A stretch of DNA of 64,000 bases from Azolla caroliniana (Eukaryota > Plantae > Polypodiophyta), in contig JBHGNT010000002.1 of assembly GCA_043228905.1 (NCBI GenBank), positions 27,094,001-27,158,000 of the forward strand. Reading direction: 5' to 3'. The notes under the pieces are model-generated. The model was given only the letters and a program-made list of their open reading frames with translations. It made no database searches and was not told the origin of the DNA. Of this stretch, positions 5,205 through 36,641 are shown piece by piece. The translations under genes and the position numbers were made by a program. The number at the start of each line of letters is the position of its first letter. The stretch's first letter is position 1.

Positions 5205-5700
5205 TATGATCTAGAGGGGGAGGGAGGGTTGAATTAATTGACAATATAACTGTTCAAATAGCACATATAACTAATTGCATTTTTGGACATTTGGGGAAGC
5301 AATTGAAAGTTGAAACTAATGGACTCGCTTGGAGAGATAAAGCAAAACTTTCATTGAGTTTTTTCTCATGAACAAGAATGAGCAAAGCACACATAAAAAT
5401 GATCCAAGTATTCTTCTTTGGATCGAAGCGGAATATTTGTAGGTAGTGGAATGAATGGAAAGTAAAGTCGAATGTAGCCATCGTGCTAGAGACACAAATC
5501 TTCGTAGCCTTACAACTTATGGAGACACAAATCCCTATTGCAAATCGCACTCAACAGTACACCTTGGGGCTCTAAGAGGAATATTTGTAGGTAGTGGAAT
5601 GAATGGAAAGTAAAGTCGAATTTAGTCCAATGTAACACATCGTATCAAAGTGTGTTACTTTGACCCTCAAACTAGTTTGAGGCGAAATATGCATAGTCGA
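5205..5700. mobile_element. LTR-like remnant with a 44-bp direct repeat
   Basis: Starts with ctagagggggagggagggttgaatta, similar to Copia/SIRE LTR ends. The sequence ggaatatttgtaggtagtggaatgaatggaaagtaaagtcgaat occurs at 5430-5473 and 5578-5621. Confidence 0.4.
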
Positions 5701-6778
5701 TGATGAGTCTCCTCACGTATGGCCCAATGCTTTTTCTTGAGTATGACTAAATTGTATGAAAGCGATGCTTTAGATATATGGGCACTAGTATGTACATGTT
5801 AATGGTTTCCATGTTTGGCAAAGAAACACATGTGAAATAATAATACGTGAAACATGAGCCTCCACATATTTCCCAAAACATGATGCAATGACATTGCAAA
5901 AAAGCCTCTTTCATGTATTAACCTATTGATGCATCATGAATCAAATGCGATGCATCCCATTTTCCAAACCATTTCTTCATATCTTTTGCATCCACTTTGA
6001 ACCCAACGAATTTCTTTCGTTTTTATTTTATAACATTATATTTCTTTCCTATGAAAATTTGTAATCCGAGAGAGATTTTTTTTTTTTTTAGCGTCAATAG
6101 AAAGATTAATATTGCAGTGTGCATGTGTTCCTTTGTGCCACCCTTTTAGCATACCCTTTTTAGGATGCATGTACATAAGTCGACCCACCCTTTTAGCACA
6201 CCCTTTTTAGCTAAGCCAACCCAAATGGGTACCTTTGTATGAACTATAAATTGAGTAAGAAGAAAGAAGTTAACTAGGCTGGTTTTGATCTCTTATGTGC
6301 ATTTCACAATATTGACCCATGGGACCTAAGTACAAAAGTTATCTCGATGTGTGTCTCCTTCCTAAGAAGTGATATTCATAGTTTGAACACCAAGTCTTCT
6401 TGCCTTATATATATGAATAGAGAGACAAAGAGAGTCAAAATATCCAAAGATTCTCCATGCTCATTAAATCTCCATGTGATCACGCATTAGACCCTACATA
6501 ATCATAGTAGTGGAGAGATGGCATCGAGATTAGACCCTAGGAGTGGTGATAGGGTAGAGAAAGAGATGGATGTCATGTAATGAGTGTCGCATGAATGGAG
6601 ACCACCCGACCCAAACCCAAACCCAGCCAAAGAGTGGCCATGCGTTGGTTGGGATCCCAAGTGTGTGGCCTCGCCTTAAGATCTGAAAGAAAAACAAATA
6701 TTTACATTATTTATCGTCCTCTTTTCTATTACCTGTTTCAGAATTTGAAAAACAATGCATTATCAACAGTCGCGTCTT

Positions 6779-6904
6779 CTTCTTCTTCTTCTTCTTCTTC
6801 TTCTGCTTTCTTCTCGCTTTGTTGCACGTGGACAGAGGCAGGCACAGAACCAAGGTTTCCATTGAAGCTTGATCGTGGACAGAGAGAGGAGAAGACAACA
6901 CGTG
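6779..6904 (+). promoter_or_regulatory. (TTC)n tract and two G-boxes upstream of the orphan ORF
   Basis: CACGTG at 6825-6830 and 6899-6904; pyrimidine trinucleotide repeat typical of plant 5' regions. Confidence 0.35.
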
Positions 6905-6911
6905 CCCCGTT

Positions 6912-7739
6912 ATGGCTGTCGCTCCCTCCCAACCAAACCCTAACCCTAGCCCTAACCTTAACACAAGCCCTATCGCCAACCCTAACCCTAACCCTACTAA
7001 GAACCTTAAAACCATAGACCGAACTTCACCGAACCCGCTCTCGGAGATTCGAGGCCGAAAGATGACGATTGGCGCGAACAATTGTCCGGCCGAACTTCGC
7101 CGTGCGGCCTCAAGCCCCTACCATGTCATTCAAAAGTACACGAAATCCTACTACGCAACGAAAGTGTATTGGTGCAAGATCTACGAAGTCGAGTATTCTC
7201 TAATAAGAAACCCCATGACCACCTTTTTGTTGCCATGTAAGGCATCGTTAGAATGTGTTAAAGAAGAATGTATAGAAGGGACGTCTAGGAAAGCATTTGT
7301 AGCAGCCACTGGGGATGAGATAGGAATGTATGGCGAGGGTTCGAGTCCCGAAGAGGCGGCTTGTGAGCTTCAAGTCCGCCTCTCCGATCGCATCTTGGCC
7401 ATGCTAGAAGAGAAACAAAGCCATTGCTTGCCTAGTAAGAGGAAATACCAAGATGTGCTTCTTAAGGATTTTGAGGAAGAAATGATGAGTCATAATGTCA
7501 AGATATTGTCGCCCCCTAAGCATGTACCTATCCGAGTAGCATTCGGTATGACTCTCAACAAACCTCAAGAAAATATTGCCATTGGACTTGACTCGAACCA
7601 TGACCCTAACCCAAATCCTGACATAGAGACTAGCCCTCCTACCCCTAACTCTACTACAAACCTTGAAACATTACTTGATCCCACCCCTGAAATTACCCTT
7701 GACCCAAACATTGGTTCAACTGAGCCGCCCAATCCTTAA
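6912..7739 (+). CDS. Intronless hypothetical protein with a HicB-antitoxin-like core flanked by Pro/Asn-rich low-complexity tails
   Basis: Uninterrupted 275-aa ORF with a CpG-rich 5' end, an upstream (TTC)n tract and two CACGTG motifs. The core AFVAATGDEIGMYGEGSSPEEAACELQVRLSDRILAMLEEKQSHCLPS matches the HicB pattern yva..pdlpG....GdT.eEA..nl.eal...l....e.g..iP. A possible internal start is at 7215. Confidence 0.6.
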   Translation: MAVAPSQPNPNPSPNLNTSPIANPNPNPTKNLKTIDRTSPNPLSEIRGRKMTIGANNCPAELRRAASSPYHVIQKYTKSYYATKVYWCKIYEVEYSLIRNPMTTFLLPCKASLECVKEECIEGTSRKAFVAATGDEIGMYGEGSSPEEAACELQVRLSDRILAMLEEKQSHCLPSKRKYQDVLLKDFEEEMMSHNVKILSPPKHVPIRVAFGMTLNKPQENIAIGLDSNHDPNPNPDIETSPPTPNSTTNLETLLDPTPEITLDPNIGSTEPPNP

Positions 7740-9399
7740 GCATAACTTGGTATACTTAACACTAAGTAGAGTTTGCTTACTTTTACACTTGTGTAAAAAT
7801 ATAGACCCTTAGCATTTGTTCTCATTGTGTTTGCTACATATTGAGGCTTGATATTTTGACCCTACAACTTGAGAGATGGTGGTTCCAACTTCCATCCCTT
7901 TCTAATAATTCTCTCTTAGCGTTTAACCATGTTTGTTGCTATATCAAATCTTGTTGTTTCGTGAATTGAGCAACCATAAAGGCTGAAGTCAAGAGAAGCC
8001 ATTATGTTATCAGCTTCCTTGACATTTGATCATTCTTGATGTAGATTGATGTCCTTATATGAAGCTTCAACATATTTAGTCGGGCATAAAAGGATTGCTT
8101 GCTTACTTATAAGGTCTACAAATGATTTGCCTCATGCATCACAATATGCTCATGGACATGCCATGTATCATCACGATTCACAATATCCACCATTGTTACC
8201 GTCTTTATGCTGTGATGTTGGTCCATATTGTTAGCGTATAATTATTTGAGTTTATACATTTTGACAATAATATATAAGAACATTACTTATTTTCAATATA
8301 CCTCAAATTGTAATGACACATTACAACTATATACAACATTGTCTAATATTTCTTGAAAAGGACGAGACTTTGTCGAGTTTCTATTGACTTTGTGAAATAT
8401 AAAACTTGTATTGTCTGCTAACTTCATCTTGTTTGCATTTGGTAACCTTGATTAGTTCCATCCAAGTAGGTTTAGATTTTCGCAAATTATGATATTATGC
8501 TTCACCATTAACAAATAGGGTATTTTACACAATTAGATACATCCTCGATGCTTTAAAGCATACATATTCTACAACACATCCTACTTGTGATTTTGAGATT
8601 CATAATTTGTAGTGTCTACACTTAAAAGGCAACATTTTCACCTTCTGTTTTGGCATGAAATATGTTGCCAAGTTTATGATTTTCATGTTTTAAATATATC
8701 TTATTGTTGCTCAAGCTCAAATGCATGTCACTATATTTCGAAAGCTTTATATGTACACATTGGCAATGACGGTTAAAGAGCTCTATCGATCATTGTTTTA
8801 GTATAGCCTAGGGTTTTGCTTTCTTGGAATTTGTCAAATTTGGTATGCATGGTGAACGTCAACTTCATGCATTGGTTAACATTTCATATCTATTTGATTG
8901 CTTACCATATGATCTCTGCACATCCAATGTTAAACTTATTTTAGCTACTAAATCGATCATGTCAATGAAATCATTATAAACCATTGCACTATCTAATCCT
9001 TTTTATGGTATTGACAAATTGTTTCTAAGCAATGAAGATAGTGACAATAATTTTTTTATAGATTTATCTTGGGAGATACAATATTGGTTTTGATGAGCAT
9101 GAGAATATAGGCCAAGAAAGAATAATGGATCTTAAAATAGCGGAATGAAACAAGAAAGGGCATAATGGAGTACATGTGTCATTAATGAGGTGATATGTGA
9201 CACGTTAGTGGGGAAATCAGAGAAGCACACAAACCAAAAACTAGTAGACAATGTTTGAATCACGTTTCATCAACCAAATTGACGATTGAATGACCGTCAC
9301 CTTGCAAGTTGCAAAACTATAGAACATGTGTGTGTTTGATTGACCAAAATTGGATGTAAGTTTTTAGCACAAATCAATGAGAAATAACAAAAAAAACAA

Positions 9400-26029: not shown

Positions 26030-28891
26030 ATGAAGTTTGGACTATCTCTTTCTTCTTCTTGCTGTTTGCAAGAAGAAGGGTTTCCTTATCACTCCATCGA
26101 GGAGGTTTCTCATCTATTGAAAAGGTTCACAAAGGACAGAGCATATGATCAAGGACACCATTTGTATGAATCTTTGAAGAAACATCATCTTGAAACTCAT
26201 CCTTCATTCGGGAACTATGTCGTCTCTATGTTGGCTGAACTTGGGTTTATTCACGATGCCCATCATGTTTTTCACAAATTGGATCACAAAAACGAGAAAT
26301 CATGGCATTCTCTTATAATGGGCTATATAGAAAGTGATAAGCCACATCATGCCCTCTCTCTGTACCGAGAAATGGGAAAGAATGATGGTTATTCTGGTGG
26401 ACGTATTTTTTTGCCTTTTCTAAAGTCTTGTGCAAAGCTAAAAGACTTAAATGTAGGTCTTGGAGTTCATGCTGAGATTGCTAGAACGAGACTTCTTAAA
26501 GATGATATTTATGTTGGCACTGCTTTAGTTGATATGTACGTGAAATGTGGATGCATTATGAAAGCACAACAAGTCTTCAATGAGCTTTCAGTTCAAGATG
26601 TGACTGCTTGGAATGTATTGATTTCTGGATATACTGAAAATGGGCATGGTCAGAAAGCTTTAGAATGTTTTGAGAAAATGAAACATCAAGGTGTCTCTCC
26701 AAATGCTATCACGTTTGTTAGCACCTTGAGAGCTTGTGCTAGCATTCGTGATAGCGATAAGGGTGAAGAAATACACGCCGAGATTGAAAGAAAAGGTTTG
26801 ATTTCAAGAAACCCCTATATTCATAGTTCCCTTGTTGCTATGTATGCCAAATGTGGGTTGCTTTCGAAAGCTCAGAAAGTGTTTGATAGTCTTCCTATAC
26901 GTGATGTCGTATCATGGACTGCCCTTATCTCAGGTTATACTGAACATGGGCATGACAAAGAATCTCTCAAGTGTTTTGAAAAGATGCAATTTGAAGGTGT
27001 ATCTGCAAATGCTGCTACTTTTGTTAGCACTTTAAAAGCTTGTGCTAACATTGGAGATGCAAATACAGGAATTGAAATACATGATCAGATTGAACGGGAA
27101 GGTTTGCTTGATAGAAACATCTTTATTGGTAGTGCTTTGGTTGATATGTATGTAAAATGTGGTGTAACTACTAAAGCACAACAAGTTTTTGATAAACTTC
27201 CGGCCCGAAATGTTATTGTGTGGACATCCCTTATTGCAGGATATGCAGAACACGGTGAAGGAGACAAGGCCCTCAAGTGTTTTGAACAAATGCAAGAACA
27301 AGGCATCTCTCCAAATGCCATAACATTTGTGTCTGCTTTAAAAGCTTGTTGTAACATAGGAGCCATAGATATTGGCCAAGGAATACATGCTATGGTTGAG
27401 AGAAAGGGGTTACTGGAGAAAAACCTCTTTGTTGGAAGCACATTGGTTGACATGTATGCTAAATCTGGATTACTTTGGAAAGCACAAGAAGTATTTGATA
27501 AACTTCAATGTCAAGATATTGTCTCTTGGAATGCATTAATCACTGGATATGCAAAGCATGGATGTTCTCTAGAAGTCCTCGAGTGTTATGAGAGAATGCA
27601 ACTCGAGGGCATGTGCAGCAATTCTATCACCTTTATATGCAGTTTAAAAGCTTGTGGTGCTGTGAAAGCTCGTCAAAAGGGCCGAGAAATACATTGCCAG
27701 GTAAGAAGAAAGGGTTTGTTGGCAACAGACAGCAATGTTGGTAGTACGTTGATTGATATGTATGCTATGCTTGGTCTCCTTACAAATGCACGTGAAGTAT
27801 TTAATGAAATTCAGAATCAAGATGTTGTATGTTGGACTTCTTTGATTGCTGGATATGTGGAGCATGGATATGGAGAGGAAGCATTAGGTTTCTATGAGGA
27901 GATGCAACTTAAGAATGTTATACCCGATCCTATAACCATTATTTGTGGTTTGAAAGCTTGTAGCAGCATAGGATTGATAGAGAAGGGCATAGAAATACAT
28001 GCTGAAATTGAAAGGAGGAGCTTGTTAGGAACAAATGTTGTTCTTGGAAGCACTTTAGTTGATATGTATATGAAATGTGGTTTGCCTGCTAAAGCACAAC
28101 AAGTGTTCGATAAGCTCCCCATCCGAGATGTGGTGTCATGGACTACACTCATTGCCGGTTGTACAGATCATGGATATGGTGAAGAAGCTCTCTTGTGTTA
28201 TGAACAAATGCAACTTCAAGGCATTTTGCCGAATGCTGTTACATTTATCAGCATCTTAAGAGCTTGCGGCAGCATCGGAGCAATCGAGAAAGGCCAAGAA
28301 ATACACACTGAACTAGAAAGAAAGGGATTCCTTGAACAAAATAACCTTGTTGGGAGTACTCTGGTTGACATGTATGCTAAGTGTGGGTCTGTATCCATAG
28401 CACGGCAAGTGTTTGAAAGACTTCCAGATAGAGATACAGTCTCATGGAACTCCTTAATTTCAGGATATGCCCAACTTGGTGAAAGTGAATATTTTGTCCA
28501 CATTGTGGATAGGATGCTAGGGGAAGGCATAAGGCCAGATTCAGTCACACTGCTCGTTGTTCTTAATGCATGTAGTAGAAGTGGTATGTTCACCAGTAGC
28601 CAAACATATTTTGAAGTGATGAGTAAAGATTATGGTGTTATCGTGACACCTGAGCATCATGCATGTCTGGTTAATCTACTTGGCCATGCCGGACATGTCG
28701 ATAGAGCAATGGCAATGATGAATAAAATGCCTTTTTGTCCAACTCTTCCAGCATGGCGGGCTGTTTTGGGTGCTTGTAGGAACTCTGGAAGCATAGAGCA
28801 TGCGAAGCAAGCCTTTGAACATGCCATGCATTTAGATGAAACTCATTCTGCATCATATGTTTTGATGTCTCAAATATATATGCAAGAATAA
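26030..28891 (+). CDS. PLS-class pentatricopeptide repeat protein with a truncated E domain and no DYW, 953 aa
   Basis: Intronless; about eight P-L-S triplets (GSTLVDMYAKCG..A..VFD.L..RDVVSW..LI.GY...G...A..CFE.MQ..G..PNAITFVS.LKAC). Ends PEHHACLVNLLGHAG..WRAVLGACR..SASYVLMSQIY. Confidence 0.95.
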   Translation: MKFGLSLSSSCCLQEEGFPYHSIEEVSHLLKRFTKDRAYDQGHHLYESLKKHHLETHPSFGNYVVSMLAELGFIHDAHHVFHKLDHKNEKSWHSLIMGYIESDKPHHALSLYREMGKNDGYSGGRIFLPFLKSCAKLKDLNVGLGVHAEIARTRLLKDDIYVGTALVDMYVKCGCIMKAQQVFNELSVQDVTAWNVLISGYTENGHGQKALECFEKMKHQGVSPNAITFVSTLRACASIRDSDKGEEIHAEIERKGLISRNPYIHSSLVAMYAKCGLLSKAQKVFDSLPIRDVVSWTALISGYTEHGHDKESLKCFEKMQFEGVSANAATFVSTLKACANIGDANTGIEIHDQIEREGLLDRNIFIGSALVDMYVKCGVTTKAQQVFDKLPARNVIVWTSLIAGYAEHGEGDKALKCFEQMQEQGISPNAITFVSALKACCNIGAIDIGQGIHAMVERKGLLEKNLFVGSTLVDMYAKSGLLWKAQEVFDKLQCQDIVSWNALITGYAKHGCSLEVLECYERMQLEGMCSNSITFICSLKACGAVKARQKGREIHCQVRRKGLLATDSNVGSTLIDMYAMLGLLTNAREVFNEIQNQDVVCWTSLIAGYVEHGYGEEALGFYEEMQLKNVIPDPITIICGLKACSSIGLIEKGIEIHAEIERRSLLGTNVVLGSTLVDMYMKCGLPAKAQQVFDKLPIRDVVSWTTLIAGCTDHGYGEEALLCYEQMQLQGILPNAVTFISILRACGSIGAIEKGQEIHTELERKGFLEQNNLVGSTLVDMYAKCGSVSIARQVFERLPDRDTVSWNSLISGYAQLGESEYFVHIVDRMLGEGIRPDSVTLLVVLNACSRSGMFTSSQTYFEVMSKDYGVIVTPEHHACLVNLLGHAGHVDRAMAMMNKMPFCPTLPAWRAVLGACRNSGSIEHAKQAFEHAMHLDETHSASYVLMSQIYMQE

Positions 28892-33928: not shown

Positions 33929-36637
33929 CTATCTTGGTGGTGTTGTCTTTGCAGGTGTTGTTGGGCCACATTCCTCGCAGATTACTGTGCTAGAACGGTT
34001 TAATGATAACTCCTGCATTCAACACCAATTAAGACATACCGTTAATTATGTCGCCTGCTAATTAGAGACGTTTAATCGCGTTTACTTCTCAATCTAGCCT
34101 ACTTTAACCTAATTAGGGCAAATAACCTATATCCAGGCGCTGGTGGCAGTACGGGAAACCCTAATTATCTGAAGTGAATAATGGAAGTACCTGGATCTTC
34201 CATTGGAGCAGCTTCACATACTCCACAACCTCATCCAGCATATCCGCCGTGTTCGCTTGCTTCATCCACAAACAAGAATAGCAAAATGTAAATCCACCTG
34301 ATCTTACTGCTCACTACTAATTCCATGATTAACTGTTCTGCAATTACCTTGTCGAGGTTGGGTACGAGGTCTTGCAGCTTCTTAATCCGCTCGCTAATCT
34401 TCGTCCTCCTCACCTGCAAAACCGTAATCAGTAGCTGTAATTACGAATCCTTAATGCCATCCATCGCCTCTTACATATGCGAGACTAGTATTCTTGGGAT
34501 ACAAATTTTAAATCTGTGTAACTCAGACAAACAGCTCAGACATGGATGGATACATGCTAGATACATGATTAAGCATGGACGTTAAAAATGTGTCAATTTT
34601 CGGGCGGTGGCACAGATTAACAGTAATCATAAGGGCATCGAAACCTAATTGATAAAGTCTTAGCGCAGTCTTGACACTAATCTGAGACATGTACAATTTA
34701 TGGATACATTACAGTTTGGCTGGATTGAAATGATCAATTACCCGTTCTGCGATGCTGCGAGGGTGAGTGGCATGGCCCCTCTTGGCTCGCGCCTGACAAT
34801 TAGCGAGAGCCCCGCCACCAGTACCAGCGCTGCCATCAGGTGAGGAGGCAGAATGAATCCCATCATGCGATGTCGCCCCCTCCATGTTGCAGTCATCGAA
34901 ATTGTGAAAGTCTGGTTGATCCATCGCCAGAGCAGGAGGTGGATTAGGAGAGTTGGAGGTTCTGTTAAGTAATAATGAATGAGGATCGATTGGGGATAAT
35001 AATCCAGCTCTCAGTTGCTCACGATCCAGATTCAATAATGGATGCGAATTAGAGTTGAGGAACAGATCGTCACGATGATGACGGCCGTGATGATGATGAT
35101 GATGCTGTTGATTCGTAGCAGTGGCAGCAGCAGAAAGATGCTGAGAATTCATCTAGAAAAAACAAAAAAGAATTTAACAGAGACCATAGCCTCGTATCAT
35201 TTCGATCAATAGGCTCCCAATGAATCCAAACTGAAGAACACTAGATTTTACCCCTACTAGCAGGAACTAATTTGCATTGAAAATGAGCATCAGTTAAAAG
35301 GCTAGAAATTGTGTGAACCTTCATCTGATGGCCGTCTGTTGGTACTGGTCTCTGCTGCCTGGACATATTTGACATGGACATCTGATGCTCGTCCAGACAG
35401 AGCTGGGACAGTAGCCCTGCAGGGGAGCTACTCTGCCGGATCAACACATTGGAGGTCGGTGAAATGGAAGAAGACGGCAACAGTGATGGCGATAAAGACG
35501 ATGATGAAGACAGTGATGATGAAGGTGATGATGGTTGTGGTTGTGGTGGTGGTGTGATCACATCATTCGTGCTTCCATTATAATTGTAGTGTAATCTCAT
35601 AATTTGGCCATGGCCGCTAGGCGAAGAGGAATTGCTGTAAGCAGGAGCAGGAGGAGGAGGAGGAGAAGATGAAATACCTGCACTACAGCTACTGTTATCT
35701 GTAGAGTTCCTCATGATTCCAGTACCTGATCTTGATTGATGATTGATCTGGTTCATCATTATCTGCTGCTGCTGATGTTGCTTCAGATTCTTATAAGAGT
35801 ATAGCTCATTCCCAGAGATTGTGGCCGCCCCAGCAGCAGCAGCAGCAGCAGCAGTAGGAGCAGTAGCCGCCGTAAGAGAAATGTTCATGGTGGGGATGAC
35901 CTTCTTCTTCTTCTTCTCCATCTCCATCTCCATCTCCATGTCATGCATTTCTTCCATGGCAATCCTTGACAGGAGATGCGCAGGGGAGCTACTGTGCCTG
36001 ATGAGCTCATGGCCAGATGATGGTGATGGCGATGGGGATGGTGATGTTGGCGATGGCAATGGTAATGGTGGTCTCCTCCTCCTCCTCCTTCGCTTCATAT
36101 CCATGTTATTGCTGTTACGGATATCATTTGAACTGATTCTATGATCATGATGAGGGCCGGAATTGGTCATATCCGGATTATTGTTATCATCCTGCTCCAA
36201 GATTGAGGGCAAAGGATATGGCACTATATTGTCTATATTAGCAATTAGGGTATTATAATCACTGTCCATATCCAGCAGTGCAGACAACTGATCATCATCA
36301 GCACCAGCACCGCCATGGCCAGGAGGATTAAACTTGTATAGCAGGTCATGATCCTCGTCGTTGAGAAGGTCCTGTAGTACTGAACTGGGGGCAGAGTGGT
36401 GCCTAATGAGAGAATAATTGTTATTGTTGCTGCTGGTCCTCATTAATTCTGCTCCTCCAGCGCCCTTGCTGCTATTGTTGGGGGCGAAGGTATAGTTGTA
36501 GCTAATGTTGGCTGAATTACTGCTAGAATTAGTGGTATAAGGAGGAAGGGCATCCATTAATCCAAAGCAGTTCTGGTTATTGTTGCTGCTGCTGTTATAG
36601 TCCTGCTGGACGGAGTCCATGGGCATCATCATCGTGT

Positions 36638-36641
<4 letters not shown>
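33929..36641 (-). CDS. bHLH transcription factor, subfamily IX (FBH/AKS-like), 650 aa
   Basis: Exons 35319-36641, 34742-35152, 34348-34413, 34191-34259, 33929-34012. RAKRGHATHPRSIAER|VRRTKISERIKKLQDLVPNLDK|QANTADMLDEVVEYVKLLQ, plus LIRxSSSPA motifs. Confidence 0.92.

What the first reader, a model, noticed from the sequence alone, without database searches (positions are those of the whole stretch)
6912..7739. Orphan intronless plant ORF with a bacterial HicB-antitoxin-like domain (candidate horizontal acquisition)
Seen: an intact 275-aa ORF in otherwise decayed DNA, with a CpG-rich 5' end and gene-like upstream motifs. From the in-frame Met at 7215 it reads MTTFLLPCKASLECVKEECIEGTSRKAFVAATGDEIGMYGEGSSPEEAACELQVRLSDRILAMLEEKQSHCLPS...VPIRV. 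Established: HicB-family (partial RNase H fold) domains of HicAB toxin-antitoxin systems have three strands, G-x-T/S-x-E-E-A, a long helix, a Pro and a final strand, and they bind dsRBD-fold HicA RNases. They are essentially prokaryotic/phage proteins. Inference: this is a domesticated HicB-like gene fused to Pro/Asn-rich tails, with no DNA-binding domain and no HicA visible in the window. It could neutralise microbial HicA-type toxins or bind an endogenous dsRBD-fold protein.
Basis: partly seen in the sequence, partly recalled or inferred. Interest (0 to 1): 0.8.

Follow-up and report, generated by a model that had tools for sequence, protein, structure and literature searches.

The report
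Fern gene with bacterial antitoxin fold
This is a real, conserved, single-copy plant gene, likely of ferns, whose protein is predicted to fold like the toxin-blocking part of bacterial HicB antitoxins, so it was likely taken from a microbe or phage long ago and likely repurposed as a binding module rather than kept as an antitoxin.

Summary
The 275-aa ORF is real: single copy on a chromosome-scale contig, under purifying selection (18 of 22 listed core changes in relatives synonymous), with three distant relatives, one from the fern Adiantum. No Pfam, NCBIfam or PHROG HicB model matches. Yet two AlphaFold models each return seven HicB-type structures as their top seven of 48,161 chains (Z up to 8.3; next row 4.2), and the Atlas's own model of the Adiantum protein also matches HicB clusters. 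Sequence-level likeness is weak. Two acidic helix positions typical of HicB, one likely equal to the Glu needed to neutralise HicA, are hydrophobic in all four plant proteins, so antitoxin function is unlikely. Transfer from a prokaryote or phage is likely but untested by tree: no alignable microbial relative was found.

The parts
6912..7739 (+). Whole ORF, 275 aa, single copy, no intron needed
   Evidence: core collinear with 3 relatives; contigs of relatives show only in-frame indels inside the ORF among the rows listed
6912..7061 (+). Pro/Asn-rich N-terminal tail (aa 1-50), partly encoded by an AACCCT microsatellite; length varies in close relatives; likely disordered
   Evidence: not alignable to the tails of P0002 and P0003
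7062..7163 (+). Conserved basic and aromatic segment (aa 51-84), not part of HicB; starts at a Met shared by all 4 proteins; ends in a short helix modelled with confidence
   Evidence: 21 of 34 columns invariant, no indels, net charge +4 to +6; helix at aa 78-82; not HicA-like by hhalign, probability 0.14%
7164..7196 (+). Predicted strand 1 of the HicB-like domain (aa 85-95)
   Evidence: aligned to HicB residue 1 onward
7197..7286 (+).
   Evidence: 24-58 aa in the 4 proteins, 5 of 30 columns invariant; pLDDT under 50 at model residues 59-71
7287..7553 (+). Rest of the HicB-like domain (aa 126-214): strands 2 and 3, G-S-S-P-E-E-A motif, long helix aa 146-166, second helix aa 177-193, last strand aa 203-208
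   Evidence: V155, R156 and L162 replace the common HicB E, A and E
7554..7739 (+). Pro/Asn/Thr-rich C-terminal tail (aa 215-275); no HTH or RHH domain
   Evidence: no family match; more replacement changes than the core
6775..6911 (+). Likely 5' leader or promoter: CTT microsatellite and two G-boxes
   Evidence: sequence; shared with close relatives L022 and L023; function untested

Best explanation
This single-copy, intronless plant gene is conserved under purifying selection and encodes a domain predicted to have the HicB antitoxin fold, likely acquired once from a bacterium or phage by an ancestor of ferns and likely repurposed as an RNA- or protein-binding module instead of a HicA antitoxin. 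Committed mechanism (inferred): the acidic helix face that grips the basic HicA toxin in bacteria became hydrophobic and is covered by the protein's own conserved basic segment (aa 51-84); that basic, aromatic surface would then bind an RNA or a host protein, and the proline-rich tails would be flexible spacers. Step odds: real gene 0.97 (shown); HicB fold 0.9 (predicted); common descent with HicB 0.75 (inferred); microbial or phage donor about 0.65 (inferred); not a working HicA antitoxin 0.85 (inferred); the docking and RNA-binding detail about 0.3 (untested).
For: Real gene: 18 of 22 listed core differences in contigs of related organisms are synonymous against 22% expected (28 ORF rows from the 40 shown of 180, pooled over 3 runs); L022 core 11 synonymous of 14; core 62-73% identical to 3 distant relatives. 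Not contamination: it lies at 27.1 Mb of contig C2 near a PPR gene, and the Adiantum protein is on a 175-Mb contig. Fold: top 7 VIA-align rows are HicB-type for both models (5yrz Z 8.3, rmsd 3.2, 101 aligned; 6g1n 7.4, 3.2, 85; next row 4.2; Adiantum-led model 8.1, 3.1, 100). The Atlas model of the Adiantum protein gives TM 0.55 over 99 residues to two HicB clusters, and 0.58 to a 120-aa unnamed, half viral cluster. Sequence: the plant profile ranks HicB frames as 11 of the top 20 of 2,023 frames from 61 bacterial loci, against 2 of 20 with reversed frames. Restricted range: 4 proteins at E <= 0.001 among 1.84 billion representatives. Lost antitoxin face: the column that is E or D in 57 of 61 HicBs is V, V, I, A; a second that is E or D in 48 of 61 is L in 4 of 4. 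By spacing the first equals S. pneumoniae Glu47, whose change to Ala lost neutralisation (PMC6159526, section 24).
Against: No HicB model matches at any reported E-value. hhalign to HicB is weak (score 23-25, probability 14-29%) and a reversed HicB profile scores 22-23. Foldseek gave no match at E <= 0.001 for either model. The best Z of about 8 is near the level that the tool calls common for models without a Foldseek match; the case rests on one family filling the top seven rows. Both AlphaFold models use the same 4 sequences. No microbial relative could be aligned, so no tree and no donor. L022 lacks 7 codons in the long helix, though that contig is low-coverage and looks chimeric. The Glu47 match is by spacing only, and I could not inspect model contacts, so the docking of aa 51-84 is not shown.
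Confidence: 0.5

Rival explanations
1. It is still a working antitoxin: it binds and blocks HicA-type RNases of microbes, phages or symbionts.
For: HicB fold over the whole toxin-binding domain; HicBs without a DNA-binding domain are argued to be functional in bacteria (PMC10865869, passages); other bacterial genes in ferns are defence genes (PMC9477723, passages).
Against: Both acidic helix columns are hydrophobic and a near-invariant Ala (60 of 61) is Arg or Lys in 4 of 4 plant proteins; HicA toxins act inside bacterial cells (established knowledge), so contact is hard to see; the gene is single-copy and slow-evolving, unlike the tandem-expanded fern defence genes.
Confidence: 0.1
2. The fold is a look-alike: a plant-born or transposon-derived protein reached a three-strand-plus-helix shape independently, or descends from an RNase H or dsRBD domain.
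For: No sequence-significant link to HicB; 431 chains reach Z 2 or more, among them integrases and dsRBDs.
Against: Integrases and dsRBDs reach only Z 4.1 and 3.8 and cover less, while HicBs align from first to last strand; the motif register agrees with the structure; HicB frames are enriched at the top of the profile search; single copy, no transposase or repeat family.
Confidence: 0.2
3. It is HicB-related but was inherited vertically, for example from the plastid or mitochondrial ancestor, and lost or changed beyond recognition in most plants.
For: hicA-encoding loci occur across prokaryotic phyla (PMC10865869); a small fast-evolving domain could escape a single-sequence search; an N-terminal tail could be a targeting peptide (untested).
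Against: The core is 62-73% identical among known members, so relatives in seed plants, mosses or algae should be easy to find, yet only 4 proteins scored among 1.84 billion representatives.
Confidence: 0.12
4. It is contamination or a chance ORF.
For: Intronless, GC3 0.50 against 0.30 for the PPR gene.
Against: Chromosome-scale contigs in two plants, synonymous bias, ORF length beyond 1000 shuffles.
Confidence: 0.02

Closest known systems
HicB antitoxin N-terminal domain (S. pneumoniae 5yrz; also 6g1n, 6g1c, 4p78, 6u0i; Pfam PF15919)
   Same: Predicted three strands, long helix, second helix, last strand; G-x-S/T-x-E-E-A motif in register.
   Different: In a eukaryote; 10-18% identity; 24-58-aa insertion after strand 1; extra conserved basic segment; no HTH or RHH; acidic helix columns replaced; no hicA partner found.
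Small HicBs without a DNA-binding domain (classes 1 and 2 of PMC10865869) and the HicB-like solved proteins 3kwr and 2dsy
   Same: No DNA-binding domain; same fold (Z 6.5 and 4.9).
   Different: Classes 1 and 2 are 60-103 aa and linked to hicA; this protein has a 164-aa core and long tails.
Unnamed 120-132-aa phage and bacterial clusters of the ESM Atlas
   Same: Nearest by predicted structure (TM 0.58/0.66, 99 residues, reaching into the N-terminal segment) and by features (0.82-0.88).
Bacterial genes in ferns: Tma12, aerolysin-like genes, PAD (PMC9477723, PMC12448838; passages read)
   Same: Prokaryote-type gene in fern chromosomes.
   Different: Those have alignable bacterial relatives and trees, and aerolysin-like and PAD genes are tandemly expanded; this one is single-copy and recognisable only by fold.

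Membership tests
HicB antitoxins | N-terminal partial RNase H fold | tested here: met
   Predicted models only: top 7 rows HicB-type, Z 8.3 (rmsd 3.2, 101 aligned) and 8.1 (rmsd 3.1, 100 aligned); Atlas TM 0.55.
HicB antitoxins | Score above a curated HicB family cut-off (Pfam, NCBIfam) | tested here: not met
   No HicB family listed for 4 of 4 members; PF15919 finds nothing in the own genome.
HicB antitoxins | Sequence homology by profile comparison | tested here: inconclusive
   hhalign score 23-25, above 100 block shuffles (best 21) but near the reversed profile (22-23); 11 of top 20 against 2 of 20 reversed.
HicB antitoxins | [quoted passage not shown] | tested here: not met
   Tail is low-complexity and unconserved. 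Classes 1 and 2 also lack it.
HicB antitoxins | Adjacent or fused hicA toxin gene | tested here: not met
   PF07927: 0 matches in the own genome, control rang in 9 of 14 (introns or gaps could hide one); aa 51-84 not HicA-like.
HicB antitoxins | Acidic helix residue needed for neutralisation (S. pneumoniae Glu47) | tested here: not met
   E or D in 57 of 61 bacterial HicBs; V, V, I, A in the plant proteins; mapped by spacing from Thr33.
HicB antitoxins | Neutralises a HicA RNase | not testable with these tools
   Needs a growth-rescue or binding assay.
Prokaryote-to-fern transferred genes | Integrated in the plant genome and under selection | tested here: met
Prokaryote-to-fern transferred genes | Nested among prokaryotic sequences in a supported tree | not testable with these tools
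   No alignable prokaryotic relative.
Prokaryote-to-fern transferred genes | Absent from other eukaryote lineages | tested here: inconclusive
   Only 4 proteins among 1.84 billion representatives; 1 named (Adiantum), the others unnamed; no plant genomes besides the own could be searched.

The most novel reading that the evidence does not exclude
Ferns domesticated a phage- or bacteria-derived HicB-fold antitoxin domain, the first such domain reported in a eukaryote as far as the papers searched go, and rewired its toxin-binding face into a conserved RNA- or dsRBD-protein-binding regulator that sequence searches cannot see.
Probability: 0.35. Interest if true: 0.8.

Novelty: new variant of a known kind. 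Interest (0 to 1): 0.63.

Why it matters
HicB domains are described from bacteria, archaea and their viruses. A conserved plant gene with this fold would show a toxin-antitoxin part put to new use in a eukaryote, and a transfer that standard screens miss because only structure reveals it. It is one small single-copy gene, so knockout and pull-down tests are direct. Searches for a prior report found none: HicB + fern + horizontal gene transfer (53 papers, 20 listed, all prokaryotic by title), HicB + eukaryotes + land plants (1 listed, a software name), ferns + transfer + antitoxin + Adiantum (0), fern genome + toxin-antitoxin (1, unrelated), HicB-like + eukaryot (7 of 8 listed, all prokaryote or virus by title). 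Most subscription journals are not in that library.

Tried and rejected
Family scans: only sub-threshold DUF5709, CotJA and phrog_17403 rows; nothing in NCBIfam or PADLOC. PDB sequence searches: nothing useful. Foldseek: no match at E <= 0.001; 6g1c appeared at rank 4 for the second model (E 0.37, probability 0.77). tblastn of phages and plasmids: one chance-level row each. Pattern scans of genome and viral contigs: none. Profile A4 in two samples of 401 genomes from two phyla: 1 match at E 0.049 with a stop inside, judged chance, and 0; other phyla, cyanobacteria included, could not be reached. hhalign to single E. coli HicB: nothing. Longer forms: only the Adiantum protein. Homodimer prediction: no answer, no evidence either way. 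Expression: no RNA holder listed. Two runs only guessed to be RNA have contigs over 6936-8081 without a joint in the ORF, and little cover elsewhere apart from repeats; this is not proof of transcription, and the test on a spliced neighbour gene could not be run, so expression stays open. Nup85 as a neighbour in L022 was rejected as synteny: Nup85 is on C13 in the own genome and the junction runs through a shared repeat. The idea that aa 51-84 is a HicA remnant was rejected. One structure paper sought by DOI was not held. Supplements of PMC9477723 (9 files searched, 1 scanned file not) and PMC6786969 (9 files) hold no HicB or antitoxin term.

Full report
Observation. The ORF 6912-7739 is present and translates as quoted. 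It is longer than any ORF in 1000 shuffles of the region (best 214 aa). Its 5' half is CpG-rich (1.52 against 0.43). It lies at about 27.1 Mb of contig C2 of a 523-Mb assembly and is the only match of its core there (1 candidate). A search with relative P0004 found only this locus plus 3 weak rows (E 0.002-0.09), two of them over its acidic tail. The DNA is unique apart from microsatellites. The window also holds a PPR gene.

It is a real gene. Three distant relatives exist at 90% clustering: Adiantum capillus-veneris KAI5080374.1 and two proteins from unnamed sources. An exhaustive phmmer over 1.84 billion representatives gave 4 proteins, those three and a 97% identical one. The organism is therefore likely a fern; that is inference, and earlier scan notes say the same. 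The core is 62-73% identical. In contigs of related organisms, 21 of 28 listed differences in the ORF are at third codon positions and 18 of 22 in the core are synonymous, against 22% expected (p about 6e-9). Only the 40 best-supported of 180 rows were shown, and runs were pooled. A close relative on a metagenome contig gives 11 synonymous of 14 core changes, but also lacks 7 codons of the long helix; that contig has 1.5-fold coverage and appears joined to another chromosome through a repeat. Expression is not established.

Anatomy. Conservation runs from Met51 to about aa 214. AlphaFold on the 4-row alignment (mean pLDDT 69.9) gives strand 1 at aa 85-95, the insertion, strands at 126-132 and 137-140, helices at 146-166 and 177-193 and a last strand at 203-208. 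An Adiantum-led model repeats this (pLDDT 79.4). Upstream, aa 51-84 is among the best-conserved parts (21 of 34 columns invariant, no indels, net charge +4 to +6); most of it is modelled poorly except a short helix. Both tails are proline-rich and unconserved.

Fold. Against 48,161 solved chains, the seven best rows for both models are HicB antitoxins or HicB-like proteins: 5yrz (Z 8.3, rmsd 3.2, 101 aligned), 6g1n, 6g1c, 3kwr, 4p78, 6u0i, 2dsy; the next row is 4.2. 3kwr and 2dsy are not titled HicB; 2dsy matches a HicB profile at E 3e-5 and the label for 3kwr is recalled. The Atlas's own model of the Adiantum protein independently matches HicB clusters (TM 0.55 over 99 residues), 7 of its 9 rows being named or dominated by HicB families, with an unnamed, half viral 120-aa cluster first. 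Against this, Foldseek found nothing at E <= 0.001 and Z near 8 is not high in itself.

Sequence link. No curated HicB model matches. I collected 61 HicB domains from two bacterial phyla. hhalign places them in the expected register with score 23-25, above 100 block shuffles but close to a reversed profile. The plant profile ranks HicB frames as 11 of the top 20 among 2,023 frames, against 2 of 20 when frames are reversed; the HicBs are related to one another, so this is no independent count. Common descent is likely, not proved.

Function. HicB blocks the HicA active site with its N-terminal domain (PMC11594946, section 6 and passages). In S. pneumoniae, Glu47 to Ala lost neutralisation (PMC6159526, section 24 and passages). 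The column 14 residues after the Thr33-like position is E or D in 57 of 61 HicBs and V, V, I, A in the plant proteins; a second acidic column (48 of 61) is L, and an Ala in 60 of 61 is Arg or Lys. No HicA was found in the genome and aa 51-84 is not HicA-like. I infer that the toxin-binding face was remodelled, likely capped by the protein's own basic segment, and that the protein now binds an RNA or a host protein. This last step is untested.

Origin. Contamination is excluded by the chromosomal position in two plants. The narrow range and prokaryote-only fold relatives favour an old transfer into ferns, a group with known bacterial genes (PMC9477723 and PMC12448838, passages). No alignable microbial relative was found, so there is no tree and no donor. 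The Atlas leads point weakly to phage-type HicB-like proteins.

Verdict. It has the fold of HicB but fails HicB membership on family score, partner gene, DNA-binding domain and the key acidic residue. No prior report was found in five paper searches or in this scan's notes. New variant of a known kind; interest 0.63.

Noticed in passing
L022:1-1241 and L110 (G000:C13, about 20.07 Mb): The metagenome contig joins a Nup85 region to this gene through a shared repeat; Nup85 is on another contig in the own genome. Assembly chimera or rearrangement.
   Followed up: partly
window 6100-6400: High-copy short repeat upstream of the gene, very deep in a DNA run; L023 matches the window at 5482-5617 and again from 6469, so the stretch between differs between relatives.
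   Followed up: partly
L022, aa 153-159 of the window protein: In-frame loss of 7 codons in the long helix in a low-coverage contig; real allele or assembly error.
   Followed up: no
window 6936-6995: The Pro-Asn tail is encoded by a telomere-like AACCCT repeat that also occurs at many other places in the genome, with several copies on C29.
   Followed up: no
window 26030-28891 (+): Intact 953-aa PPR gene with an E motif.
   Followed up: partly
window 34709-36641 (-): Low-complexity ORFs; one ends in a motif that I recall from plant bHLH factors; no Pfam match at 0.01.
   Followed up: no
   Followed up: no
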